From a virus (lineage: Duplodnaviria; Caudoviricetes), in IMG/VR virus record IMGVR_UViG_3300000176_000011, positions 1-59,917 of that record: DNA of 59,917 bases; one strand, written 5' to 3'. Below the pieces are notes generated by a model. That model worked only from the letters and a program-made list of their open reading frames with translations, ran no database searches and was not told the origin of the DNA. Numbering within the stretch: position 1 is the stretch's first letter; each line of letters starts with the position of its first letter. The translations under genes and the position numbers were made by a program. Of this stretch, positions 1,186 through 53,683 are shown piece after piece.

Positions 1186-1665
1186 ATGACCGAAATACAC
1201 GCCAAGCCAATTGTGGATGGTAAGTTTTGGATTGTAGAACAAGATGGTTCTAAGATCGCAACACTACACAAGAAAGAAAACAACAAATTTGTACTATCAA
1301 GTACTAACGGTGAACTAATGTTCAATCGAAAACAAGATCTAACCAAGCAATTTGGAGAAGGCTTTTTTCTAACTAATAATAAGATTAAAGTTACACAAGC
1401 TGAACCAAATGAATGCCACGGTTATCCAACTAGTGTAAAACCATACAATGCTATGTACGATGTAAGAAATCGACTGCCATTGTTTACCAAAAGTAATGCA
1501 AGTAAAAGTTTATATTGCGCTGGTTATTACACCATCAAGTTTAATAAAGGGTGGGTTAAATCATTCTGTCCTAAGGTTATTACATTAGAACGTAATGAAT
1601 ACAAAGGTCCTTTTAAAACTGAATTTGAAATGAAACAGGTATTAGCCAATGTCAAATCAGATTAA
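1186..1665 (+). CDS. hypothetical protein (159 aa)
   Basis: ORF with AAGGAG RBS; ATAAATA at 1129-1135 upstream. Confidence 0.75.
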   Translation: MTEIHAKPIVDGKFWIVEQDGSKIATLHKKENNKFVLSSTNGELMFNRKQDLTKQFGEGFFLTNNKIKVTQAEPNECHGYPTSVKPYNAMYDVRNRLPLFTKSNASKSLYCAGYYTIKFNKGWVKSFCPKVITLERNEYKGPFKTEFEMKQVLANVKSD

Positions 1666-1894
1666 TCTAACACCAATAACGCAGTTTATTCAAAGTGTCA
1701 GAGCCGCAGAACTAAGTCAAAGTAAAGAAGTAAAATTATCAATTCAACAAGCAAGGCTACTTAATTTAGCCCTTGCTGAATTGTTAGATAAGATTAATCA
1801 AGATTACGAGACTATGTTTAATGCACTTAAAAAAGGTGTTGATACAGAAGTTATTTCTATAACCATGGACGGTGGTGGTTTTAGCGACAAATAA
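1649..1894 (+). CDS. hypothetical protein (81 aa)
   Basis: ORF overlapping the previous stop; ends MDGGGF. Confidence 0.7.
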   Translation: MSNQINLTPITQFIQSVRAAELSQSKEVKLSIQQARLLNLALAELLDKINQDYETMFNALKKGVDTEVISITMDGGGFSDK

Positions 1895-1931
1895 AGATAA
1901 ATATATGCGTATATAATTTGAGGATACGCAA

Positions 1932-2216
1932 ATGTCGAGACCAAAGCCAAAAGTATTGTTAGAGCATACTAACAAAAAAACTTATAAATCTGAACAAGTT
2001 TTGGAAGCCGAGGCTATCTGGGCTGTATTCTACAAGAATGAGCCGTTTAATCTAAAATCATTTAATAGTTTAACTAGCTACCCTGGACCTAAATATAAAA
2101 AAGTATCATTTAGTAATCCAGGGCATGCTCACAATCTTGCTAAAAAGTTAAATTTAACATTTGGAACTGAAGATTTCCAAGTTGTTATGTTAACTCAAGG
2201 CACTATTATAAAATGA
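1932..2216 (+). CDS. hypothetical protein (94 aa)
   Basis: GAGGA RBS; GATAAATA at 1896-1903. Confidence 0.75.
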   Translation: MSRPKPKVLLEHTNKKTYKSEQVLEAEAIWAVFYKNEPFNLKSFNSLTSYPGPKYKKVSFSNPGHAHNLAKKLNLTFGTEDFQVVMLTQGTIIK

Positions 2217-2718: not shown

Positions 2719-3807
2719 ATGGCAGAAATCGTCAGTCGCACTGTAGGCCCTAGCGGTGCTAAAAAGTCTCTACGCAAGGCTTTTAAAAATCAGCGTCCAA
2801 TTTTCCTTTGGGGTCCTCCAGGTATTGGCAAGTCAGACATTATCAAGCAACTTGGTACCGAGCTAGATGCTCATGTGATTGACGTTCGTTTGAGTCTTTG
2901 GGAACCTACTGATATTAAAGGTATTCCATATTTTGACTCCAACGATAATACTATGCGTTGGGCTCCTCCAAGTGAATTGCCTAGCCAAGAATTGGCTAAT
3001 AATTATAAACAAGTCATTTTGTTCTTAGACGAAATGAACAGTGCCGCTCCTAGCGTACAGGCAGCCGCATACCAACTTATTTTGAATCGCCGTGTAGGCA
3101 CTTATAAACTGCCAGACAACGTTGTGCTAGTTGCGGCAGGTAACCGCGAAACTGACAAAGGTGTTACATTCCGTATGCCTGCTCCGTTGGCTAATCGTTT
3201 CGTTCACTTGGAAATGACTGTTAACTGGGACGACTATTTTGAATGGGCTGTTGAAAACAAGATTCACCAAGATGTTGTGGGCTTTTTGAGCTTTTCTAAA
3301 AAGAGCTTGTACGACTTTGATCCAAAGTCTAGCTCACGTGCGTTTGCTACTCCACGCTCTTGGAGTTTTGTAAGCGAATTGCTTACCGATGATGACGTAG
3401 ATACAGATACACTAACTGATTTGGTGTCAGGTTCTGTAGGTGAAGGTCTTGCTATTAGTTTTATGGCTCACCGTAAACATGCCAGCAAAATGCCTAATCC
3501 AACAGACATTTTGAATGGTAAAGTTAAAAAGATGGATTCGAAAGAAATTTCAGCCATGTATTCTTTAACTGTATCCTTGTGCTACGAGTTGAAAGACTCT
3601 TGTGACAAAAATGTTAAAAATTGGAATGACCAAGTTAACCATTTCTTTGAATTTATGATGAATAACTTTGAAACAGAATTGGTTATTATGGGTACTAAAT
3701 TGGCATTGAGCACTTACAAATTGCCATTAGATCCAGACGAAATCAAATGTTTTGATGAGTTCCATTCTAAGTTTGGTAAGTACATTAGCGCCGCAACTGA
3801 GAAATAA
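2719..3807 (+). CDS. MoxR-like AAA+ ATPase
   Basis: Walker A GPPGIGKS, Walker B LFLDE, sensor AAGN, arginine finger LANRF, TPRSW. Confidence 0.9.
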   Translation: MAEIVSRTVGPSGAKKSLRKAFKNQRPIFLWGPPGIGKSDIIKQLGTELDAHVIDVRLSLWEPTDIKGIPYFDSNDNTMRWAPPSELPSQELANNYKQVILFLDEMNSAAPSVQAAAYQLILNRRVGTYKLPDNVVLVAAGNRETDKGVTFRMPAPLANRFVHLEMTVNWDDYFEWAVENKIHQDVVGFLSFSKKSLYDFDPKSSSRAFATPRSWSFVSELLTDDDVDTDTLTDLVSGSVGEGLAISFMAHRKHASKMPNPTDILNGKVKKMDSKEISAMYSLTVSLCYELKDSCDKNVKNWNDQVNHFFEFMMNNFETELVIMGTKLALSTYKLPLDPDEIKCFDEFHSKFGKYISAATEK

Positions 3808-3823
3808 ATTGGTTTAAGGCTAT

Positions 3824-3852
3824 TTGACACCACCTTCGGGTGGTGTTATAAT
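3824..3852 (+). promoter_or_regulatory. consensus sigma70 promoter whose spacer is a UUCG hairpin
   Basis: TTGACA 3824-3829, 17 bp, TGn-TATAAT 3847-3852; ACACCACC-TTCG-GGTGGTGT spans the spacer. Confidence 0.8.
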
Positions 3853-3882
3853 ATATACATGTACAAAATATCAGGAGCAAAT

Positions 3883-5067
3883 ATGTCAAATTTAGATCCA
3901 ATTATCGACAAAATTATCGTAGCCCGAGTGGGTCTACTACTTCGCCATCCGTTCTTTGGCAACATGGCTACACGTTTAAAAATTGAAGAAGGTTCCGACT
4001 GGATGGGTACTGCCGCTACAGATGGTCGTACTATTTTCTTTAATCGTGAATTTTTTGAACCGCTTACAGTTAAACAGGTTGAATTTGTTATTGCTCACGA
4101 AATCTTGCACAATGTATTCGATCATATGGGACGACGCGAAGGTCGTAACCCACGTATCTTTAACATTGCCGCAGACTATTGTGTAAACGGACAGTTGGTT
4201 CGAGACCGCATCGGTGATCATCAAATTGCAGGTATTAAAATCTTTCACGATGCCAAATACTACGGTATGGGCGCAGAAGAAGTCTATGACAAAATTTATG
4301 ACGAAATGGACGAAGAAGAACTTAATCAATTAGGTCAACTATTAGATGATCACATTGACTGGGGCGACAAAGATGGCACAGGTAAACCCAGTTATACTAA
4401 AGAAGAACTAAAACAAATTCGTGACGAGATCCGCGAAGCTACAATGCAGGCCGCACAAGCCGCAGGTGCAGGTAATACTCCGGCTAGTGTACAACGCATG
4501 ATTAAAGAACTAACCGAGCCTAAGATGAATTGGCGTGAAATACTACGTCAACAAATCCAAAGCACTATTAAGAATGACTACTCATTTATGCGTCCAAATC
4601 GTAAAGGTTGGCACATGAGTGCTATTCTTCCTGGCACACAATTTGAAGACACAATTGATATCTGCGTGGCAATTGACATGAGTGGATCAATTGGCGATGA
4701 ACAAGCCAAAGATTTCTTAGCAGAAATTAAAGGCATTATGCAAGAGTACAAAGACTTTAAAATTAAATTATGGTGTTTTGATACTCGAGTTTACAATGAA
4801 GCCAGTTATGACGGTTACAACATTGACGAGTTTGACTACTACGAGCCAATGGGCGGTGGCGGAACTGAGTTCGATGCCAACTGGATATACATGAAGGAAC
4901 ATGATATTCAACCTAAGAAATTTATCATGTTCACAGACGGTTATCCTTGGGGTAGCTGGGGTGATGAAGATTACTGTGATACAGTATTCATTATTCACGG
5001 CAATGATAAGATTGTTCCTCCTTTTGGAGAATATGCGTATTACGAAGCAATTACGGAAAAAGCATGA
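3883..5067 (+). CDS. HExxH metallopeptidase-like plus VWA-domain protein (DUF2201-like), probable partner of the AAA+ ATPase
   Basis: AHEILH motif; MIDAS DMSGS, GGGTEF, FTDG; CAGGAG RBS favours ATG 3883 over 3859. Confidence 0.85.
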   Translation: MSNLDPIIDKIIVARVGLLLRHPFFGNMATRLKIEEGSDWMGTAATDGRTIFFNREFFEPLTVKQVEFVIAHEILHNVFDHMGRREGRNPRIFNIAADYCVNGQLVRDRIGDHQIAGIKIFHDAKYYGMGAEEVYDKIYDEMDEEELNQLGQLLDDHIDWGDKDGTGKPSYTKEELKQIRDEIREATMQAAQAAGAGNTPASVQRMIKELTEPKMNWREILRQQIQSTIKNDYSFMRPNRKGWHMSAILPGTQFEDTIDICVAIDMSGSIGDEQAKDFLAEIKGIMQEYKDFKIKLWCFDTRVYNEASYDGYNIDEFDYYEPMGGGGTEFDANWIYMKEHDIQPKKFIMFTDGYPWGSWGDEDYCDTVFIIHGNDKIVPPFGEYAYYEAITEKA

Positions 5068-5351
5068 GCTTAAAGAATGGCAAGCCCAATCCTCTAAATT
5101 ATTTTGACTTAAGGAGGGTTGAGTTTGCCTGCCCTCATTTTAAATATACTACTTTAGACAAATACAATCCTAACATAGTCAAATCCATCGATGCTTGGAT
5201 TAAGAAGAATTTAAATAATAGATACTATGTAGGACAAGGGATAGCCCTAGACAATACCAAAACTATAGTATATATTACACGTATAGGGTTTGAAAGTGAA
5301 AAGGAATTAAGTTTTTTCACAATTGCCTGCCCACATTTGCAGACGAGATAA
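5064..5351 (+). CDS. hypothetical protein (95 aa)
   Basis: ATGA-coupled ORF. Confidence 0.7.
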   Translation: MSLKNGKPNPLNYFDLRRVEFACPHFKYTTLDKYNPNIVKSIDAWIKKNLNNRYYVGQGIALDNTKTIVYITRIGFESEKELSFFTIACPHLQTR

Positions 5352-5384
5352 TTATATACGTACAAATCATATTAAGGAGATACC

Positions 5385-5642
5385 ATGACAGATACAGTAC
5401 AAAATCCAGCAACACCAGAACAAGCATCTACAGAGTTAACTATTAATGACCTAAATGCAATGAAAGTAATCATTGATATTGCTAGTTCACGTGGCGCTTT
5501 TAAACCAAACGAAATGGTAGCAGTTGGCCAAACATATACTAAACTAACAACATTTTTAGAAACTGTAGCCGCACAACAAGCCGCACAACCACAACAGCCA
5601 GCCGCTCCAACAGCACCAGCGACAGCACCAACAGGAGCTTAA
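5385..5642 (+). CDS. hypothetical protein (85 aa) with A/P/Q-rich tail
   Basis: AAGGAG RBS. Confidence 0.75.
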   Translation: MTDTVQNPATPEQASTELTINDLNAMKVIIDIASSRGAFKPNEMVAVGQTYTKLTTFLETVAAQQAAQPQQPAAPTAPATAPTGA

Positions 5643-47595: not shown

Positions 47596-48609
47596 ATGGA
47601 AAATTTATTTAAGAAAGCGGCTGTATTTACAGATCTCCATCTTGGACTGAAAAGTAATTCGTCAATTCATAATCAAGACTGCGAAGATTTTGTTGACTGG
47701 TTCATATCTAAAGCAAAATCCGAAGGATGTGACACAGGATTATTTCTTGGAGATTTTCATCATAATCGAAATACATTAAATGTAGTTACAATGGATTACT
47801 CGTTGAGAGTTCTGGAAAAGCTCGGTCAGGCGTTTGATAACTTCTATTTCTTTCCTGGTAATCATGATTTGTATTACAAAGACAAACGGGACATACACAG
47901 TGTGGAGTTTGGAAAGTATATACCTGGTATCACTGTGGTACATGAGCCTACTACTATTGGAGATGTCACGCTGTGTCCCTGGCTGGTTGGTGAAGAATGG
48001 AAATCAATAAGCAAAAAAGGTGGCAAGTATTGTTTTGGACATTTTGAATTACCTAAATTCTTTATGAATGCCATGGTACAAATGCCTGATCACGGCGAAC
48101 TTCAAGTAGATGCGTTCAAGGGGTTTGAACTAGGATTCAGTGGGCACTTTCATAAACGCCAACAAAATGAAAATATGATTTATATTGGCAACGCATTTCC
48201 GCACAATTATTCAGATGCTTGGGATGATGAGCGTGGTATGATGGTGTTAGAGTGGGGAGGCACTCCCACGTATTTTACTTGGCCTGGACAACCTACATTT
48301 CGTACAGTTAAATTAAGCCAGCTAATCGATGAAGCTGATAAAATTATTAAACCTAAACAACATCTTCGTGTGACTTTAGACATTGATATTAGTTTTGAAG
48401 AAGCTAGTTTTATTAAAGAAAAATTTATTGGTGATTATGACATTCGTGAACTAACACTAATTGCAGAAAAGAAAGAAGCTGAAATTAATACTAGTATTGA
48501 TATCCAGGCTTTTGAAAGCGTAGATCAAATTGTAAGCAATCAGATTATTAGTATTGACAGCGAAACATATAACAAAAACACCTTGTTGGAAATTTATAAT
48601 AGCTTATGA
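47596..48609 (+). CDS. gp47: Mre11/SbcD-like recombination nuclease
   Basis: DLHLG, GDFHH, GNHD, GHFE, SGHFH metallophosphoesterase motifs. Confidence 0.92.
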   Translation: MENLFKKAAVFTDLHLGLKSNSSIHNQDCEDFVDWFISKAKSEGCDTGLFLGDFHHNRNTLNVVTMDYSLRVLEKLGQAFDNFYFFPGNHDLYYKDKRDIHSVEFGKYIPGITVVHEPTTIGDVTLCPWLVGEEWKSISKKGGKYCFGHFELPKFFMNAMVQMPDHGELQVDAFKGFELGFSGHFHKRQQNENMIYIGNAFPHNYSDAWDDERGMMVLEWGGTPTYFTWPGQPTFRTVKLSQLIDEADKIIKPKQHLRVTLDIDISFEEASFIKEKFIGDYDIRELTLIAEKKEAEINTSIDIQAFESVDQIVSNQIISIDSETYNKNTLLEIYNSL

Positions 48610-50387
48610 GTATAAAACTTAAAGAATTAACAGTTAAAAATTTTATGAGTGTGGGCAACCAGACCCAGGCAGTAAACTTTGCCCAAGAAAATCTAACCCT
48701 TGTACTGGGTGAAAATTTAGATCAAGGCGGCGATGATAGTGGTTCACGTAACGGTACAGGTAAGACAACTATTGTAAATGCCTTGAGTTTTGCCCTGTTT
48801 GGCAATGCATTAACTAATATTAAAAAAGATAACTTGATTAATAAAACCAACAATAAAAATATGTTGGTAACACTGGCTTTTGAAAAAGATGGCACAGACT
48901 ATCGAATTGAACGTGGCCGCAAACCTAATGTACTACAGTTTTTTGTTAACGACCAAGCTCAAGAAACTGAAGAAACAGATGATGCACAAGGCGACATGCG
49001 TGAAACACAAAAGGATTTAGATGACCTGTTAGGCATGAGCCATGACATGTTCAAACATATTGTTGCTCTTAACACATACACTGAGCCGTTTTTAAGTATG
49101 CGGGCCAATGACCAGCGTGTGATCATTGAGCAATTACTAGGTATTACGCTTCTTAGTGAAAAAGCAGATGCACTCAAGGAATTGGTCAAACTGACCAAAG
49201 ATGCTATTACACAAGAAACAGCTAACATTGAAGCTACCAAACGCAGTAACGAAGGCATACAAAAAAGTATTGATAGTCTACTGACTAAACAAAATGCCTG
49301 GAATACACAACATGCACAAGATTTAGAAAAGATTGGTCGTGCTATTGTAGAACTTGAAAGTGTGGATATTGAAACTGAACTTGCGAAGCACAGCGAGCTG
49401 AAAGATTTTTCTGAAAAATCAGCGAAGCTGAAAAGCCTAGAAAAGGAGCAAGCTACTTTGAATAGCGCGATAGCGCAAGCAGAGCGAAGCGTTACGAAGT
49501 ATAACGGCGAGCTTGCCAAGTTGGCTAACAAGACCTGTCACGCATGTGAACAAGAACTACATGATCACAAACATGAAGAAATGACCACTGTTGCACAGGG
49601 TCACCTCAATGAAGCAAAAAAATACTATGACAAAGTTTCAAAAGACTTAGAAAAAATTCAAGCCGAGATTCAAGCAGTGGGCGAAATACCCCGCAAGCCT
49701 GTTACTTACTATGATACAATTGAGCAAGCTCTTAAGCATCAAAACAACTTAAAGACCTTGGAAAATCAACTGGTACAAAAAAGCCACGATGCTGATCCTT
49801 ATCAAGAGCAAATTGACGAACTAACCGACACAGCTCTCCAGGAAATTTCATGGGACCGTGTTAATGAACTTAGCAGTCTCAAGGATCATCAAGAGTTCTT
49901 GCTTAAACTGTTGACATCAAAAGATTCGTTTATTCGTAAAAAGATCATAGATCAAAATCTAGCCTACTTGAACAATCGTCTAACCTATTACTTGGACAAG
50001 ATGGGTTTGCCACACAGCGTACTATTTCAAAATGATCTTACAGTTATGATTACTCAACTGGGGCAGGACTTGGATTTTGACAACCTATCACGGGGTGAGC
50101 GCAATCGTCTTATCTTGGGTCTGAGTTGGGCGTTCCGCGATGTATGGGAAAGCCTATATCAAAACATCAATTTACTGTTTGTAGATGAACTAATTGACAA
50201 TGGCTTGGATGCTTCGGGTGTAGAAGGCGCACTGGCTGTATTGAAAAAAATGGCTCGTGAACGCAAAAAGAACATATTCTTGATATCACACAAGGACGAA
50301 CTAATTGGTCGTGTGAACAATGTGCTAAAAGTCGTTAAGGAAAATGGCTATACTAGCTATGCCAACGACTTAGAGATCAATGAGTAA
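48606..50387 (+). CDS. gp46: Rad50/SbcC-like recombination ATPase
   Basis: NGTGKTT Walker A, CHAC zinc hook, LSRGE signature, VDELID Walker B, ISH. Confidence 0.92.
   Translation: MSIKLKELTVKNFMSVGNQTQAVNFAQENLTLVLGENLDQGGDDSGSRNGTGKTTIVNALSFALFGNALTNIKKDNLINKTNNKNMLVTLAFEKDGTDYRIERGRKPNVLQFFVNDQAQETEETDDAQGDMRETQKDLDDLLGMSHDMFKHIVALNTYTEPFLSMRANDQRVIIEQLLGITLLSEKADALKELVKLTKDAITQETANIEATKRSNEGIQKSIDSLLTKQNAWNTQHAQDLEKIGRAIVELESVDIETELAKHSELKDFSEKSAKLKSLEKEQATLNSAIAQAERSVTKYNGELAKLANKTCHACEQELHDHKHEEMTTVAQGHLNEAKKYYDKVSKDLEKIQAEIQAVGEIPRKPVTYYDTIEQALKHQNNLKTLENQLVQKSHDADPYQEQIDELTDTALQEISWDRVNELSSLKDHQEFLLKLLTSKDSFIRKKIIDQNLAYLNNRLTYYLDKMGLPHSVLFQNDLTVMITQLGQDLDFDNLSRGERNRLILGLSWAFRDVWESLYQNINLLFVDELIDNGLDASGVEGALAVLKKMARERKKNIFLISHKDELIGRVNNVLKVVKENGYTSYANDLEINE
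49382..49512 (+). repeat. cluster of GNA/GA-loop mini-hairpins embedded in gp46
   Basis: TGC-GAA-GCA, CAGC-GA-GCTG, GATTTTT-CTG-AAAAATC, CAGC-GAA-GCTG, GCGC-GATA-GCGC, GC-GAA-GC, TAC-GAA-GTA within about 130 bp. Confidence 0.6.
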
Positions 50388-50649: not shown

Positions 50650-50661
50650 TATACATACATT

Positions 50662-51087
50662 ATGTCTTGGTACTATAACAATGAAATCGTTGAATCGCTT
50701 CCGGAAGAATGTGTTGGGTTTGTATATTTGATAACAAACATGACTTCTGGGCGTATGTACATAGGCAAAAAATTAGCAAAATTCTCAAAAACTACTTACA
50801 AAACAGTAAAACTCAAGAACGGCACTAAGAAGAAAAAGAAAATCCGTAGCAAAATTGATTCAGACTGGCGGGACTATTACGGTAGTTCGCCTGAATTAAC
50901 CAAGGATGTTACGCAGTTAGGTACAGAAAATTTTCGCAGAGAAATACTTTTCTATTGTAAATCAAAGGCAGAGTGTAGTTATATCGAAGCTCGTGAACAG
51001 TTTTCACGCAGAGTTCTTGAATCCGATCTCTATTATAATGGTCATATTCAAGTGCGTGTACATGGTTCACATATACTCAAGTCCTAA
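50662..51087 (+). CDS. small GIY-YIG endonuclease (T4 endonuclease II/Seg-like), catalytic domain only
   Basis: GFVYLITN...MYIGKK, DWRDYYGSS, F.REIL, YIEAREQF, YYNG. Confidence 0.8.
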   Translation: MSWYYNNEIVESLPEECVGFVYLITNMTSGRMYIGKKLAKFSKTTYKTVKLKNGTKKKKKIRSKIDSDWRDYYGSSPELTKDVTQLGTENFRREILFYCKSKAECSYIEAREQFSRRVLESDLYYNGHIQVRVHGSHILKS

Positions 51088-51109
51088 TAATTCAGGCCGT
51101 TTAATCACC

Positions 51110-51475
51110 AAATAAGCCCGCACTGGCGTTGTTAAAGTGCCCGAAATCCGTTCTGATGTGTGACGGTAAGGTAGTTCTGCTTGGTGACAGAGTTATACAT
51201 TACTATCCTTTACAGGACGATGATCAGATACGCCGCTAACTGGTTTAATGTGTAAGTAGTTGAGAATAAGGCTAAAAGAGGGGTAGTAGCCCCACGGTTT
51301 AATATGTGTTAGCGTATGTATTAAGCCCGCCGTCATATAAAGACATAGCTCGTGGTACCGGATGACCGCCACTGTAATGCTATAACGCTAAGGTGATATT
51401 GTGCAACTCAGATAATGTCCATTTCGCTTTGCCCGCCAGGGCAAAGTGTGACTGAACAATCTAGATAATATCTTA
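51110..51475 (+). ncRNA. candidate large structured non-coding RNA of unknown family
   Basis: ORF-free interval, more GC-rich than neighbouring gaps, with about 10 helices containing many G-U pairs and three loop-loop complementarities (see findings). Confidence 0.65.
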
Positions 51476-51593
51476 ACGCTTCGCGTTTTAATTAAAAGAT
51501 TAACTACTCCTTAATAGTTCGAGCTCAAGCGAAGAACAGAAGAACGCAAGTTCTTCTTCCAGTACTAGATAAATATCACATAGGAAACAACAA

Positions 51594-52634
51594 ATGCGTG
51601 TTATTGACATTATAAGCCAAGATCTCAATGAGGGTAAAATCAGTACTCCTGTTGAGTTTATATGGGATTTATTTTTAAAATCTGAAGGACGTGCGGCTGC
51701 TCGAGAAGCAGTTGCGGCTACTGAAGCAGTTACCAAAGCGGCTGTTAAAAAAGGTGCTCCGTTAACTCCGGCAGAAATGGAACGTCTTGGCATTAAACCT
51801 GAACTACGTAATAATCCTCAATGGACTAGACAAACCGAAGACAATGTTCGTATAGAGCTGGCCAAACGTGCTCCCAAGGTTAAGACACCTCCTGAGCACA
51901 AAATTAGACCTGCTGAAGTTCCTACTAGCCCACGTCCAACTATTAAAGGTGCAATGAATAAATTGTCATTGGCCACTAATCGATTTGCCAGTTTAGCCAG
52001 TAAACTAACTGCTGTTGGTATTAGTGTAGCACCTTTTTATACCTATAACGAAGATGTCAATAGACTAAAAGAAATGTTGGATGCTGGTGAATTAGAAGGT
52101 GGACAAGCAGAATTTGAAGCACAACGACAGGCCAAAATGAGTATTGCCATAGGAACATTTGCCGCAAGCCTAACAGGTTTCTTTGCCATCAAGAGTGTTG
52201 GCCGTGGATCCAGTTGGTTGCTTGGATGGATTCCTGGATTTAAACCTGCTATGAGTTTGCTGACCAGTGCTGGAGCAATTGCTCTTGAAGAATGGTTACG
52301 TGGTCCTGATGGCAGAAAATTAATTGCCAAGGCATTTGCTGAAGATATGTTTAAATTAGATCGTATATTTGGTGCACCAGTAATCAAAGCTCTAGACGAA
52401 TTAAAGAAAATGTTCCCTATGTTTGATAACGGTATTGGCTCGCCTGGTGCAATGACTCCTGCAGATAGAGCCAAAGCAGGTGCGGCTAATAAATCTAATA
52501 TCTCTGCAACATCATCTGCCGCACCTGATGATAAACTAAATGCTGTTGACCCCAAAACACAAGCAATGTTAAATGCATATGGCTATAAACAAACTCCAGG
52601 CGAAGCAGGTCAGAGAAACTTTGATTACAAATAA
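51594..52634 (+). CDS. hypothetical protein (346 aa), late-promoter driven
   Basis: GATAAATA 51568-51575, AGGA RBS; hydrophobic segments in the middle. Confidence 0.7.
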   Translation: MRVIDIISQDLNEGKISTPVEFIWDLFLKSEGRAAAREAVAATEAVTKAAVKKGAPLTPAEMERLGIKPELRNNPQWTRQTEDNVRIELAKRAPKVKTPPEHKIRPAEVPTSPRPTIKGAMNKLSLATNRFASLASKLTAVGISVAPFYTYNEDVNRLKEMLDAGELEGGQAEFEAQRQAKMSIAIGTFAASLTGFFAIKSVGRGSSWLLGWIPGFKPAMSLLTSAGAIALEEWLRGPDGRKLIAKAFAEDMFKLDRIFGAPVIKALDELKKMFPMFDNGIGSPGAMTPADRAKAGAANKSNISATSSAAPDDKLNAVDPKTQAMLNAYGYKQTPGEAGQRNFDYK

Positions 52635-52874
52635 TTAAAGCAAAGGCATTTGACTAGTTTTAGTCATTTCAAGATTTTCTTTTACGATTTCATAGATAGC
52701 TTGCCTATCATCAAAACTATAACGATCCATGAGATCGTTAACGCTGACACCTCCACGCATGTACCAGCTGAGTCTAAACATTTCTTCTTTAATTTTTTTA
52801 ACTTGTGTATCTAGCCTAACTAGATAATCCATTATAGACTCGTTATCTAATCTAATTAGGCTTTCGCGAAAAAA
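52635..52874 (-). CDS. gp51-like tail/hub assembly segment, probably made as a -1 frameshift extension of the upstream gene
   Basis: Frame open from the slippery heptamer at 52874-52868 through ATG 52832; WYMRGGVS motif; no clear RBS of its own. Confidence 0.65.
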   Translation of the reverse strand, partial: FFRESLIRLDNESIMDYLVRLDTQVKKIKEEMFRLSWYMRGGVSVNDLMDRYSFDDRQAIYEIVKENLEMTKTSQMPLL

Positions 52875-53683
52875 CTTGATTCGTCTAAATCTAAGTAAAC
52901 TGGATTTTTTTCGTGGCAGTTATCGCACTCACCTTCAAATGGCGGTGAACGCATTTCAATTCTATTAGTTTCAAATTGATCTTTAATACGGTCAAAAACA
53001 TCTTTGTCACAATTTTGCAACCATTCCATGATAAATTCACGTTCAGTTACTACTTTATCAGCGATTTCAACACTGTCAATACTGGTGGCAAATATTTCAT
53101 TTTGCAAAACACCAAGTTCTTTAAACAAATCTTGGATAATATCTTTTTGTTTTTGCTCATCTTCAAGAGTTGTAGTCTGTGCTAGTCGTCTTTGCAAGTT
53201 GTAATTTTTAATATTAAACTCAGTAGCTTGTTTATATGTTAGTGGACGTAGATTAATTGTTAGTTTGTCTAATAATACCTTACCGTTGTAACTAAAAGAT
53301 TTAAAATGTTCAATAATTTTACTTAGATCTAAAGTATAATCATTACTAGTTTTGCAATGTGGGCAAGTGTGGCTAATGTTTATTTCGTTACCGTAGGTGG
53401 CAATACGAATAGCCGCTAGAACAACTTCAAGATCCAGTGTGCTTAACTTCCAAGCATCTTTAATCACTGGACAACAGCTTTGTATAACACGAACTGTGCT
53501 TTCGCCTGACATTAAACTGTCTGGAGTTTTAACAACAATTTCGTCCATACCAGTCATGCCAAATACAGGCATGTTTGTTGCATCGCCTTGTAATGTCCCT
53601 AGCTCGTTAAAGACTCCTTGGCTAGGAAGACTGATATAAACTTTAGGTTGTCTAAAGTACTGCTGTAAGGGATTTGTGGGCAT
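52856..53683 (-). CDS. gp26: baseplate hub/tail assembly chaperone, T4 gp26-like
   Basis: NPL..YFRQP..YI.LPS; MT..DE; D...L.AIR.A.YG; CPHC and C..C; ends SSFF. Confidence 0.75.
   Translation of the reverse strand: MPTNPLQQYFRQPKVYISLPSQGVFNELGTLQGDATNMPVFGMTGMDEIVVKTPDSLMSGESTVRVIQSCCPVIKDAWKLSTLDLEVVLAAIRIATYGNEINISHTCPHCKTSNDYTLDLSKIIEHFKSFSYNGKVLLDKLTINLRPLTYKQATEFNIKNYNLQRRLAQTTTLEDEQKQKDIIQDLFKELGVLQNEIFATSIDSVEIADKVVTEREFIMEWLQNCDKDVFDRIKDQFETNRIEMRSPPFEGECDNCHEKNPVYLDLDESSFFAKA

What the first reader, a model, noticed from the sequence alone, without database searches (positions are those of the whole stretch)
51110..51475. Candidate large, multiply pseudoknotted ncRNA directly downstream of a minimal GIY-YIG nuclease
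Seen: a ~500-bp ORF-free gap in an otherwise tightly packed genome. Hand pairing on the + strand gives these helices: GCACT/AGTGC (51120-24/51136-40); a long-range 11-bp TGTGTGACGGT/GCCGTCATATA (51157-67/51329-39); GTAGTTCTG/CAGAGTTAT (51171-79/51188-96); ACATTA/TAATGT (51197-202/51246-51); TCCT-TTAC-AGGA; GATCAG/CTGGTT (51222-27/51240-45); GGGGT-AGTA-GCCCC; a 14-bp stem at 51296-51327; ATAGC..GTGG/CCAC..GCTAT (51345-83); GATATTGT/ATAATATC (51395-402/51465-72); and CGCTTTGCCC-GCCA-GGGCAAAGTG. Mostly unpaired segments are mutually complementary: GGCGT 51125-29/ACGCC 51230-34, ATCCG 51146-50/CGGAT 51359-63, AGTTG 51258-62/CAACT 51404-08. The many G-U pairs work only as + strand RNA. I do not see tRNA, tmRNA, RNase P or group I/II signatures. 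Inference: a compact ribozyme-scale RNA, probably co-transcribed with a 141-aa GIY-YIG protein that has a lysine-rich insert but no separate DNA-binding domain. It could be a nuclease-RNA complex (by analogy with HEARO/omega RNAs), or a structured primer RNA for an R-loop origin.
Basis: partly seen in the sequence, partly recalled or inferred. Interest (0 to 1): 0.9.

Follow-up and report, generated by a model that had tools for sequence, protein, structure and literature searches.

The report
Large phage RNA extending Polynucleobacter-1
The gap holds a real, heavily folded non-coding RNA of giant freshwater phages: its first third is a catalogued motif of unknown function, and the uncatalogued rest carries two short sequence copies that always change together.

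Summary
The ORF-free gap (51088-51593) is real and holds a conserved, + strand, non-coding structured RNA. The claim of no known signature is wrong: 51115-51255 matches Rfam RF01718 (Polynucleobacter-1, function unknown) over the full model at 73.1 bits against a cut-off of 37. That motif is only the 5' third. Conservation and covariation continue to about 51472 in phages and bacteria, and to about 51557 in phages and in one Burkholderiales-order genome. His 11-bp long-range helix and all three of his pseudoknots fail. Three other pseudoknots are strongly supported. A second class keeps the 3' core but has a different 5' domain that Rfam does not know. The oddest feature is two 7-mers 53 nt apart (51410-16, 51463-69). 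They are identical in 158 of 167 distinct sequences while varying among 10 forms. The nuclease partnership is not supported. In phages the RNA usually follows the GIY-YIG gene (64 of 75 loci), but 3 loci have a PD-(D/E)XK nuclease there instead. Bacterial copies have no nuclease nearby, and cultured-phage homologues of the nuclease lack the RNA. Function is unknown. My best guess is a trans-acting scaffold that presents twin recognition elements.

The parts
50662..51087 (+). 141-aa GIY-YIG-only nuclease gene. It is the usual upstream neighbour and is probably co-transcribed. It is not shown to be a partner of the RNA.
   Evidence: Pfam PF19835 SegE_GIY-YIG, 115.4 bits, residues 3-129. RNA-library contigs 50652-51148 and 50875-51166 bridge the stop codon and the start of the RNA.
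51115..51255 (+). 5' domain, which is Rfam RF01718 Polynucleobacter-1. It holds helices 51120-24/51136-40, 51148-51/51163-66, 51175-79/51188-92, 51197-202/51246-51, 51205-08/51215-18 and 51222-27/51240-45, and a small pseudoknot 51116-18/51125-27.
   Evidence: cmscan 73.1 bits against a gathering score of 37, model positions 1-141 of 141.
51280..51293 (+). Hairpin GGGG/CCCC.
   Evidence: 4 of 4 pairs changed on both sides; 77.3% of cells paired in the MAFFT alignment.
51296..51327 (+). 12-bp hairpin. Its loop (51309-15) forms pseudoknot 1.
   Evidence: 12 of 12 pairs changed on both sides, 87.1% paired.
51309..51315 (+). Pseudoknot 1, 5' strand (UUAGCGU). It pairs with 51385-91.
   Evidence: 99.1% paired, 7 of 7 pairs changed on both sides. 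Also found blind in the covariation scans.
51385..51391 (+). Pseudoknot 1, 3' strand (ACGCUAA).
   Evidence: helix 11.
51332..51336 (+). Pseudoknot 2, 5' strand (GUCAU). It pairs with 51362-66 and crosses helix 51345-49/51379-83.
   Evidence: 99.3% paired, 3 of 5 pairs changed on both sides. In 167 sequences 51334/51364 is UA 89 and CG 63 with no exception.
51362..51366 (+). Pseudoknot 2, 3' strand (AUGAC). It lies inside the near-invariant GGUACCGG...ACCGCC block.
51345..51383 (+). Helix AUAGC/GCUAU enclosing GUGG/CCAC.
   Evidence: 86.3% paired with 5 of 5 double changes; the inner pairs are 92.6-100% paired.
51393..51418 (+). Repeat module 1: GUGA, a variable stretch, AACUC, then twin 7-mer copy 1 at 51410-16 (AGAUAAU here).
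51427..51446 (+). Hairpin CUUUGCCC/GGGCAAAG between the two modules.
   Evidence: 99.1% paired.
51448..51471 (+). Repeat module 2: GUGAC, a variable stretch, AAUCU, then twin 7-mer copy 2 at 51463-69. The Methylococcales-titled bacterial copies align with the phage RNA up to about 51472.
   Evidence: The 7-mers are identical in 158 of 167 distinct sequences.
51475..51487 (+). Small hairpin AACG-CUUCG-CGUU, part of the 3' extension.
   Evidence: 4 of 4 pairs with double changes but 69.5% paired; many rows have gaps.
51517..51537 (+). Hairpin GUUC/GAAC with an internal loop (GA opposite GAA) and a 2-bp GC stem capped by a tetraloop.
   Evidence: The two innermost outer pairs have 21 and 26 double-change cells. 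The GC/GC stem is 100% paired with double changes. The module is also present in the Burkholderiales-order copy L296.
51538..51557 (+). Terminal 8-bp hairpin, probably the 3' end or a weak terminator.
   Evidence: 97.0% paired, 7 of 8 pairs with double changes. The simple scan did not call it a canonical terminator.

Best explanation
WHAT IT IS. The gap encodes an autonomous, non-coding, multiply pseudoknotted RNA. It runs about 360 nt (51115 to about 51472), and the phage versions carry a 3' extension to about 51557.

ARCHITECTURE (shown). Its 5' third is the catalogued orphan motif Polynucleobacter-1 (RF01718). The more widely conserved part is an uncatalogued 3' core. That core holds two pseudoknots around a near-invariant GGUACCGG...ACCGCC block, followed by two tandem modules of about 25 nt that flank a hairpin.

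EXPRESSION (partly shown). In this phage the RNA is probably transcribed by read-through as the last unit of the rightward operon: Mre11-like gene, Rad50-like gene, small ORF, GIY-YIG gene. It may then be trimmed near 51118.

RELATION TO THE NUCLEASE (shown). It is not an obligate partner of the GIY-YIG nuclease. The adjacency is lineage synteny, or possibly selfish nuclease genes sitting next to a conserved gene.

HOW IT WORKS (inferred, about 0.35). The RNA acts in trans as a rigid scaffold. Its two modules display two identical 7-nt elements (51410-16 and 51463-69) to a two-fold symmetric or duplicated partner, for example two copies of one nucleic-acid sequence or a dimer. The identity of the two elements matters; their actual sequence does not.
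For: IDENTITY. RF01718 matches at 73.1 bits against a cut-off of 37. The family matched in 12 of 15 related loci at 80.9-121.1 bits.

EXTENT. The gap DNA is conserved downstream of GIY-YIG homologues in 69 of 80 loci that were picked by the protein alone. 51268-51490 is more conserved than the Rfam part.

STRUCTURE. One search gives 102 pairs, 89.4% paired against 74.2% in shuffles, 73 pairs with double changes, and 0 of 500 shuffles reaching any of the five measures. Slid controls are 36.9-41.6% paired. It is non-coding.

A SECOND CLASS. Some loci keep the 3' core but have another 5' domain. Rfam found nothing in 12 such loci, 134,868 bases, nor RF01718 in L093, L143 and L156.

TWIN 7-MERS.
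- In the HMM alignment of 167 distinct sequences, 158 have identical 7-mers, 5 differ at one position and 4 have gaps. Ten forms occur.
- In the subset picked by protein only, 60 of 63 are identical.
- By column: 51410/63 is AA 92, GG 73, GA 2; 51414/67 is AA 99, GG 68; 51416/69 is UU 136, AA 21, GG 3; 51411/64 is GG 164, CC 3.
- On a tree built from the other columns, each column of 51410/63 changes 41 times and the pair state 42 times. For 51414/67 the counts are 16, 16 and 16.
- A Burkholderiales-order copy carries an eleventh form, AGCGAAA, twice.

AUTONOMY.
- Of 75 phage loci picked by an RNA pattern and having upstream sequence, 64 have GIY-YIG adjacent, 6 have GIY-YIG plus an inserted ORF, 3 have PDDEXK_15 and 2 have something else.
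- The next ORF lies on the opposite strand in 43 of 71 loci.
- Bacterial copies lack a nuclease neighbour.
- There is one copy in each of two complete phage genomes of 345-355 kb.

EXPRESSION. Contigs from lake metatranscriptome libraries cover 50652-51148, 50875-51166, 51118-51268, 51263-51420 and 51119-51308 at 99% identity or more.
Against: - No experiment and no raw reads were available. The RNA-library contigs have depth 2-4, flanking genes are covered too, and DNA carry-over cannot be excluded.
- The 5' end near 51118 rests on two contig ends from two studies, which is only a weak hint.
- The trans-acting scaffold mechanism is inference only. No partner was found. No complementary 7-mer occurs at a constant place: 20 of 192 cases have one within 800 nt, about what I calculate for chance. 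The only recurrent complement, 51248-54, is G/U-rich and already lies in a covarying helix.
- The helix joining the two modules (51399-404/51454-59) is only 60.9% paired in the MAFFT alignment, so the symmetric-rod picture is tentative.
- Recombination among phages inflates the parsimony counts.
- Sequences picked by the pattern have 'GAU' of copy 1 fixed by the pattern itself.
- Weinberg et al. 2010 rated the motif 'probably' cis-regulatory. In the Burkholderiales-order copy and in the window itself a gene follows on the same strand.
Confidence: 0.55

Rival explanations
1. Nuclease-RNA complex. The RNA guides, scaffolds or activates the domain-poor GIY-YIG nuclease, by analogy with omega/HEARO or TnpB RNAs.
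For: - The RNA lies directly 3' of a nuclease gene in 67 of 75 phage loci: 64 GIY-YIG and 3 PDDEXK_15.
- The nuclease has no DNA-binding domain.
- RNA-library contigs bridge the gene and the RNA.
- When GIY-YIG is replaced, the replacement is another small nuclease.
Against: - The RNA occurs without any nuclease neighbour in bacterial genomes.
- ORFs are inserted between the two in 6 loci.
- The GIY-YIG family is found in 460 cultured-phage records at 49.3% identity or less. None of the 4 loci examined has the RNA, and a blastn search of the gap against all phage records finds nothing.
- No GIY-YIG column tracks the variable 7-mers: the highest mutual information is 0.09 of 0.99 bits for 51410 and 0.25 of 0.96 bits for 51414.
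- No HEARO or related Rfam family matched at E up to 10.
Confidence: 0.08
2. Selfish-nuclease adjacency. The RNA gene is a conserved target, and free-standing homing-type nucleases (Seg-like GIY-YIG or PD-(D/E)XK) have settled beside it. This would explain the neighbourhood but not the RNA's function.
For: - Two unrelated nuclease families occupy the same slot.
- The Pfam family is named after T4 SegE, and PHROG homing-endonuclease families also match.
- The junction is plastic, with ORFs of 257-356 aa inserted.
Against: - No clear nuclease-free phage locus was seen: 2 'other' of 75, one of which was cut short.
- The protein is strongly conserved, 74-91% identity among the best 80 relatives, and lacks a DNA-binding domain.
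- The wider family looks like a common gene of T4-like phages, not a sporadic one.
Confidence: 0.2
3. Cis-regulatory RNA (riboswitch or attenuator) that controls the gene downstream, as Weinberg et al. 2010 tentatively rated the motif.
For: - Table 1 of PMC2864571 rates it 'y' (probably) for cis-regulatory.
- A gene follows on the same strand in the window, 36 nt after the last hairpin. The same holds in 28 of 71 phage loci and in the Burkholderiales-order copy.
- The last hairpin could serve as an expression platform.
Against: - In 43 of 71 phage loci the next ORF is on the opposite strand.
- The downstream genes are unrelated. A search with the window's 346-aa protein found 1 weak relative.
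- At about 445 nt with three or more pseudoknots it is far larger than known riboswitches (established knowledge, recalled).
Confidence: 0.1
4. Ribozyme. The size, the pseudoknots and the near-invariant junction nucleotides reflect a catalytic core, for self-processing or for action on a host substrate.
For: - Invariant unpaired blocks (GGUACCGG...ACCGCC, AAAGAC, GUGAC, ACUC/AUCU) sit next to covarying helices.
- Its complexity is comparable with known large ribozymes (recalled).
- Two RNA-library contigs from different studies begin at 51118 and 51119.
Against: - No ribozyme family matched at E up to 10.
- No cleavage data exist, and contig ends are weak evidence.
Confidence: 0.12
5. The twin 7-mers act at the DNA or template level. 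They would be two sites that must be identical for homology-dependent strand exchange or polymerase template switching, which would make the locus a recombination or replication element (this includes the reader's origin idea).
For: - Coupling by identity with no complementary third strand is what a homology requirement produces.
- The locus follows the recombination nuclease genes.
- Integrase and resolvase genes lie near the bacterial copies.
Against: - The invariant flanks of the two copies always differ (ACUC against AUCU).
- No single-module deletion variant was seen: 0 of 24 family hits, though that pattern was badly chosen. No joints appeared in the contigs.
- The surrounding helices are under RNA-level selection.
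Confidence: 0.08

Closest known systems
Polynucleobacter-1 RNA motif (Rfam RF01718; Weinberg et al. 2010, PMC2864571)
   Same: 51115-51255 matches the whole 141-position model at 73.1 bits against a cut-off of 37. The strand, the helices and the habitat agree: the paper lists fresh water/estuary and Burkholderiales, and here there are lake metatranscriptomes and 3 of 151 Burkholderiales-order genomes.
   Different: - The catalogued model is only the 5' third of the conserved RNA.
- The 3' core (two pseudoknots and the twin modules) is not in Rfam 15.
- A sister class has that core without the Rfam domain.
- Most copies found here are in T4-like phage contigs, including complete genomes of 345-355 kb.
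- I saw only Table 1 and its legend. The paper's supplements, which show flanking genes and the alignment, were closed.
Nuclease-associated RNAs: HEARO/omega RNA of IscB/IsrB and the TnpB reRNA
   Same: A structured RNA of several hundred nucleotides lies next to a small nuclease gene, 3' of the ORF as in TnpB. That arrangement is recalled, not tested.
   Different: - The nuclease is GIY-YIG or PD-(D/E)XK, not RuvC-type.
- No HEARO match at E up to 10.
- The RNA and the nuclease each occur without the other.
Large orphan bacterial and phage RNAs (GOLLD, ROOL, OLE, raiA)
   Same: Large, pseudoknotted, sporadic, carried by phages and mobile islands, function unknown. The features of these families are recalled, not tested.
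   Different: - None of these families matched.
- I know of no report of a twin-7-mer identity rule in them (recalled).
cow-rumen-2 RNA (Rfam RF02947)
   Same: A weak match falls on the pseudoknot core in 2 of the 16 sequences searched in E-value mode: the window at 51296-51400, 17.3 bits, E 2, and L133, 22.9 bits, E 7.5. The printed alignment shares UAGC, AGCCGCC, ACAGGAUGACC and GUAA.
   Different: The scores are far below the gathering score of 66 and the E-values are above 1, so I do not claim membership. It is a lead only.
T4 Seg-type free-standing GIY-YIG endonucleases beside RNA genes (for example segB in the T4 tRNA cluster; recalled)
   Same: A GIY-YIG gene of the SegE Pfam family lies next to a conserved RNA gene in a T4-like phage.
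   Different: The protein here has only the catalytic domain, is highly conserved, and is nearly always present.

Membership tests
Rfam RF01718 Polynucleobacter-1 | Covariance-model score at or above the curated gathering score, over the full model. | tested here: met
   73.1 bits against 37, model positions 1-141 of 141, + strand. 12 of 15 related loci scored 80.9-121.1 bits.
Rfam RF01718 Polynucleobacter-1 | The model's helices are kept by compensatory changes in relatives. | tested here: met
   Helices 51120-24/51136-40, 51197-202/51246-51, 51222-27/51240-45 and 51175-79/51188-92 are 90-100% paired with double changes. In the window itself the second hairpin is weak, with non-standard pairs flagged.
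Rfam RF01718 Polynucleobacter-1 | The family describes the whole RNA. | tested here: not met
   Conservation and covariation continue for 220-300 nt beyond model position 141.
OMEGA/HEARO-type nuclease guide RNA | Adjacent RuvC-type nuclease (IscB, IsrB or TnpB). | tested here: not met
   The neighbour is SegE_GIY-YIG, or PDDEXK_15 in 3 loci.
OMEGA/HEARO-type nuclease guide RNA | Match to the HEARO or related covariance models. | tested here: not met
   Only RF01718, rli36 and cow-rumen-2 appeared at E up to 10 in 50900-51700.
OMEGA/HEARO-type nuclease guide RNA | RNA and nuclease always occur together. | tested here: not met
   RNA without a nuclease. Nuclease family without the RNA.
OMEGA/HEARO-type nuclease guide RNA | RNA-dependent nuclease activity. 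| not testable with these tools
   This needs biochemistry.
Group I intron carrying a GIY-YIG ORF | Intron covariance-model match and a host gene split by the element. | tested here: not met
   No intron family matched at E up to 10. The flanking ORFs are separate, complete genes, and the downstream gene differs among loci.
Riboswitch or 5'-UTR cis-regulator | Consistently upstream of, and on the same strand as, a related gene. | tested here: not met
   The next ORF is on the opposite strand in 43 of 71 phage loci, and the downstream proteins are unrelated.
GIY-YIG nuclease, SegE family (the protein) | Pfam PF19835 above its cut-off, with the motif residues kept. | tested here: met
   115.4 bits against 25. 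In 130 distinct homologues the Tyr of 'VYL', the 'YIG', the E-x-R-E stretch and the Asn of 'YYNG' are at least 98% conserved. Assigning these residues to catalysis is recalled, not tested.
Free-standing homing endonuclease | Sporadic presence or absence among otherwise syntenic genomes, and a DNA-binding domain. | tested here: inconclusive
   The nuclease is replaced by another family in 3 of 75 loci, but no clear empty site was seen. There is no domain beyond the catalytic one.

The most novel reading that the evidence does not exclude
The RNA is a new class of large functional RNA shared by giant freshwater phages and bacterial islands. In it, the twin 7-mers would be programmable, identity-coupled recognition elements of one of two kinds. 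Either they are two identical guides that pair with two copies of one nucleic-acid target, so that the RNA bridges or assembles molecules. Or they are the two strands of a natural parallel helix made of like-with-like base pairs (A-A, G-G, U-U, C-C), which would explain covariation in the register i with i+53.
Probability: 0.2. Interest if true: 0.9.

Novelty: new variant of a known kind. Interest (0 to 1): 0.7.

Why it matters
Polynucleobacter-1 has been in Rfam since 2010 as a 141-nt orphan, tentatively rated cis-regulatory. In the paper library searched here, only the 2010 discovery paper mentions its name. Its accession also occurs in two genome reports whose text I did not read.

This analysis changes the picture in three ways:
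- The motif is the replaceable 5' domain of an RNA of 360-445 nt. The real conserved core, with two pseudoknots and two tandem modules, is uncatalogued.
- The RNA is a single-copy gene at a fixed place in phage genomes of 345-355 kb.
- It also occurs in islands of Burkholderiales-order genomes and of MAGs titled Methylococcales.

Large, complex bacterial RNAs have repeatedly turned out to be ribozymes or elaborate machines, so a well-defined new one is worth an experiment. A bacterium that carries it, if one can be cultured, would allow genetics.

The identity-coupled 7-mers are a rare kind of covariation. They give a direct, cheap test: mutate one copy, then both.

The finding also corrects a tempting but unsupported 'GIY-YIG guide RNA' story.

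Tried and rejected
No earlier findings were seen.
- blastn (distant mode) of the gap against 50,697 phage records found no match.
- The search for related loci with the downstream 346-aa protein found 1 weak relative, so it was useless for collecting loci.
- RNAalifold on MAFFT alignments gave noisy or very partial consensus structures: and with 11 pairs. Pseudoknots, indels and the mixing of two classes defeat it. I relied instead on explicit pair counts and blind covariation scans.
- The helix between the variable parts of the two modules (51399-404/51454-59) is clear in some subgroups but only 60.9% paired in A1. I leave it tentative.
- cow-rumen-2 similarity is sub-threshold only.
- I searched for a strand complementary to the 7-mers. 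Exact reverse complements within 800 nt occur in 20 of 192 cases at no constant offset. The best aligned window, 51248-54, is G/U-rich and already paired. Rejected.
- One search kept only copy pairs that agreed at 6 or more of 7 positions, so its '190 of 192 identical' is biased. The unbiased figures are those.
- Covariation of the GIY-YIG protein with the 7-mers: none.
- I searched for single-module deletion variants. The pattern instead matched a common variant of the middle hairpin. 24 of 26 hits were ordinary two-module RNAs and 2 were unrelated, so the test was uninformative.
- Of 79 exact pattern hits in genome contigs, only 16 were relatives by nhmmer. The other 63 are consistent with chance; by my own arithmetic about 130 chance hits are expected in 596 Gb.
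- Stretches of the window without cover in the RNA-library contigs are not evidence of anything.
- The sigma-70 promoter and terminator scan found nothing in the gap. Phage promoters of other types are not covered by that scan.
- An 89-aa protein upstream of the nuclease was considered as a possible constant partner. It is present in only 20 of 80 loci by tblastn. Rejected.
Full report
WHAT IS THERE. The window is a 59.9-kb fragment of an uncultured virus record. It has a T4-type gene set:
- a Metallophos (Mre11-like) gene at 47596-48609 and an AAA_23/SMC_N (Rad50-like) gene at 48606-50387;
- a baseplate-hub gene at 52856-53683 on the minus strand.

After an 89-aa ORF comes a 141-aa protein (50662-51087) that is nothing but a GIY-YIG domain of the SegE family. 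Then follows the gap, 51088-51593. It is one of three stretches over 500 nt without an ORF of 100 aa, and the other two are filled by ORFs of 81-95 aa. The gap is non-coding. Its 36-aa frame is open in 7 of 55 relatives, and 473 of 518 deletion runs are not multiples of three.

IT IS PARTLY KNOWN. A scan of the whole window against Rfam 15 gives one match above threshold: RF01718, Polynucleobacter-1, at 51115-51255 on the + strand, 73.1 bits against a cut-off of 37, covering the full model. In E-value mode nothing else credible appears. rli36 scores 17.8 bits and cow-rumen-2 scores 17.3 bits, both with E above 1. No intron, RNase P, HEARO or ribozyme family appears, and there is no tRNA or tmRNA.

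Table 1 of Weinberg et al. 2010 lists the motif as probably an RNA, probably cis-regulatory, riboswitch status ambiguous, from Burkholderiales and fresh water/estuary (I read passages only, and the supplements are closed). A full-text search for the motif name found only that paper. A search for the accession found it and two genome reports (search listing only).

IT IS MUCH LARGER THAN THE CATALOGUED MOTIF. More than 586 IMG/VR stretches encode close relatives of the GIY-YIG protein, and the best 80 were kept.
- In 69 of those 80 loci the DNA just downstream is homologous to the gap.
- The most conserved part is not the Rfam domain but 51268-51490, with a further block at 51518-51560.
- On a 55-sequence alignment (A1) a revised structure of 102 pairs is 89.4% paired (shuffles 74.2%, slid partners 36.9-41.6%). 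It has 73 pairs with changes on both sides and a covariation score of 0.420 against 0.163. None of 500 shuffles reaches any measure.

- the loop of the long hairpin, 51309-15 with 51385-91 (99.1% paired, 7 of 7 pairs with double changes);
- 51332-36 with 51362-66 (99.3% paired), which crosses the helix 51345-49/51379-83;
- 51116-18 with 51125-27 (93.9% paired).

It fares as follows:
- Eight hairpins or helices hold, some after trimming.
- The 11-bp long-range helix fails (46.5% and 59.7% paired).
- His three pseudoknots fail (53.7%, 66.9% and 33.6%).
- GATATTGT/ATAATATC is inconclusive (75.4%).

TWO CLASSES. Some loci match only the 3' half of the profile. Their 5' part is a different sequence, about 190 nt long, that shows compensatory changes by eye.
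- Rfam sees nothing in them: 0 matches in 12 loci at gathering thresholds, and no RF01718 in L093, L143 and L156 at E up to 10.
- A complete 346,856-bp phage genome of this kind also lacks RF01718.

So the shared, defining part of the RNA is the uncatalogued core from about 51328 to 51472. It consists of the pseudoknotted GGUACCGG...ACCGCC block and two tandem modules (GUGA(C), a variable stretch, A-YYY, a 7-mer) on either side of a hairpin.

THE TWIN 7-MERS. Positions 51410-16 and 51463-69 carry the same seven letters. Across 167 distinct sequences aligned to a profile HMM, the two copies are identical in 158, differ at one position in 5, and are gapped in 4. Ten forms occur: AGAUAAU 54, GGAUAAU 38, GGAUGAU 23, AGAUGAU 16, AGAUGAA 11, GGAUGAA 8, AGAUGAG 3, GCAUAAU 3, AGAUAAA 1 and GGAUAAA 1.
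- In the subset collected through the protein alone, the figure is 60 of 63 identical.
- The coupling is in parallel register, i with i+53, and joins like with like. The counts are AA 92, GG 73, GA 2; then AA 99, GG 68; then UU 136, AA 21, GG 3; and the rare G-to-C change occurs in both copies together, 3 of 3.
- These were among the strongest signals in a blind mutual-information scan, at the level of the Watson-Crick pairs.
- On a tree made from the other columns, the two columns of the first pair each change 41 times and the pair state 42 times. For the second pair the counts are 16, 16 and 16. Recombination will inflate these counts.
- A divergent copy in a Burkholderiales-order genome has AGCGAAA at both places.
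- The letters just before the 7-mers are invariant but differ between the copies: ACUC against AUCU.
- No complementary third strand was found.
- No column of the GIY-YIG protein follows the 7-mers.

I cannot explain this rule. Three kinds of cause would produce it: a symmetric or duplicated partner read by base pairing, direct like-with-like pairing of the two strands, or a requirement for homology at the DNA or template level.

WHERE IT OCCURS. To avoid choosing loci through the nuclease, I scanned IMG/VR with a pattern from the RNA core.
- Of the 75 with enough upstream sequence, 64 have the GIY-YIG gene directly upstream on the same strand. Six have it 800-960 nt upstream with another ORF in between. 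Three have a PDDEXK_15 nuclease in its place (Pfam E 2.5e-29 to 4.5e-24). Two have something else.
- The next ORF downstream is on the opposite strand in 43 of 71 loci.
- RF01718 occurs once in each of two complete genomes of 354,680 and 345,154 bp.

The same pattern run against one genome per prokaryote species gave 79 hits, of which 16 are true relatives. Ten of the 16 have no GIY-YIG match in the sequence held, and at least four of those ten are cut at or near a contig end.
- In contigs of MAGs titled Methylococcales or Gammaproteobacteria (L216, L218, L219, L252), the RNA aligns with the phage RNA up to about 51472. A small ORF of 111-138 aa lies divergently upstream. A resolvase gene lies nearby in L216, and an integrase-sized ORF in L245 that I did not search. 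L297, a Methylococcales-order genome, has the same divergent ORF (136 aa) but matches the profile up to position 444.
- In a Burkholderiales-order genome, the full architecture including the 3' modules lies between a DUF6641 gene and a 224-aa ORF, near an integrase gene.
- RF01718 was above its cut-off in 3 of 151 genomes of that order and in 2 of 151 genomes of the order of the Methylococcales-titled MAG.

Conversely, the GIY-YIG protein has relatives in 460 cultured-phage records, all below 60% identity, the best being 49.3% in Methylophilales phage Melnitz. Many are annotated 'NAD synthetase'. The four loci I fetched have no such gap and no match to the RNA profile, and Melnitz-3 has no RF01718.

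EXPRESSION. Six lake-water metatranscriptome runs from different studies hold part of the stretch. I laid four of them on the window.
- Their contigs, at 99% identity or more, cover 50652-51148 and 50875-51166, which bridges the gene and the RNA.
- They also cover 51118-51268, 51263-51420 and 51119-51308.
- Depth is only 2-4, flanking genes are covered as well, and DNA carry-over cannot be excluded.
- Two contigs from two studies begin at 51118 and 51119, which is a weak hint of a 5' end.
- No sigma-70-like promoter lies between the gene and the RNA, and no canonical terminator was called.

INTERPRETATION. Shown: this is a real, conserved, + strand structured RNA. It belongs to RF01718 in its 5' domain, it is two to three times larger than that family's model, and it is not tied to the GIY-YIG nuclease. 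Inferred: it is made by read-through at the end of the recombination-nuclease operon, and it acts in trans. The twin elements on an apparently two-fold arrangement suggest a scaffold that engages two copies of one partner. I give this about 0.35.

The rivals and my odds are:
- a neighbourhood created by selfish nucleases, 0.2 (this concerns the adjacency only);
- a ribozyme, 0.12;
- a cis-regulator, 0.1;
- a nuclease-RNA complex, 0.08;
- a DNA- or template-level element, 0.08.

CAVEATS.
- The alignments are MAFFT or HMM alignments, not structure-aware ones.
- The phage sequences are related and recombine.
- The second collection fixed three letters of copy 1 through the search pattern.
- The habitat rests on coded run labels and record titles.
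- The orders named for searches come from the record titles of L215 and L252, not from the search tool.

Noticed in passing
L086, L098, L101, L102, L105-L107, L109, L118, L120, L129, L140, L160 (regions just 5' of the shared core): A second class of the RNA has a different 5' domain of about 190 nt, with helices that show compensatory changes by eye. Rfam 15 has no match for it.
   Followed up: partly
L122:3963-4484, L127:2614-3126, L143:265-771: A 168-173-aa PDDEXK_15 nuclease occupies the slot of the GIY-YIG gene, directly upstream of the RNA.
   Followed up: yes
L105:4369-5259, L146:536-1606, L115:10375-11148, and L048 (341-aa ORF at 3426-4451): ORFs of 257-356 aa with no Pfam family are inserted between the GIY-YIG gene and the RNA in some phages.
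   Followed up: partly
window 51296-51400; L133:308-409: There is a recurrent sub-threshold match to Rfam cow-rumen-2 (17.3 and 22.9 bits against a cut-off of 66) over the pseudoknot core. It may be a distant relative or chance.
   Followed up: no
window 50662-51087 and 460 phage records: This GIY-YIG family is widely annotated 'NAD synthetase' in phage records and in PHROG 447, which looks like a propagated misannotation.
   Followed up: no
L216:2647-2982, L252:4487-4903, L297:4082-4492, L219:6420-6800: In contigs of MAGs titled Methylococcales or Gammaproteobacteria, a small basic, proline-rich ORF of 111-138 aa lies divergently upstream of the RNA. The two copies searched (L216, L297) match no Pfam family. 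An ORF of 115-136 aa lies nearby in L216, L218 and L252; I judged it MORN-like by eye, and the one copy searched (L252) matched no Pfam family.
   Followed up: partly
window 51205-51218: In the small hairpin, U51206 and C51218 swap together (UC 88, CU 34). This fits an A-C/U-A arrangement exchanged for A-U/C-A.
   Followed up: no
window 51393 and 51448: The first G of the two GUGA(C) elements also changes in concert (GG 124, AA 29, mixed 12), which extends the identity rule beyond the 7-mers.
   Followed up: partly
G306, G307, G309 (records behind L092, L117, L052): The phages that carry this RNA include complete or nearly complete genomes of 345-355 kb, so this is a lineage of giant T4-like freshwater phages. 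CheckV rates the window at 16% complete.
   Followed up: no
window 1649-2216 and 5064-5642: The two other long stretches without a large ORF are filled by pairs of ORFs of 81-95 aa.
   Followed up: yes
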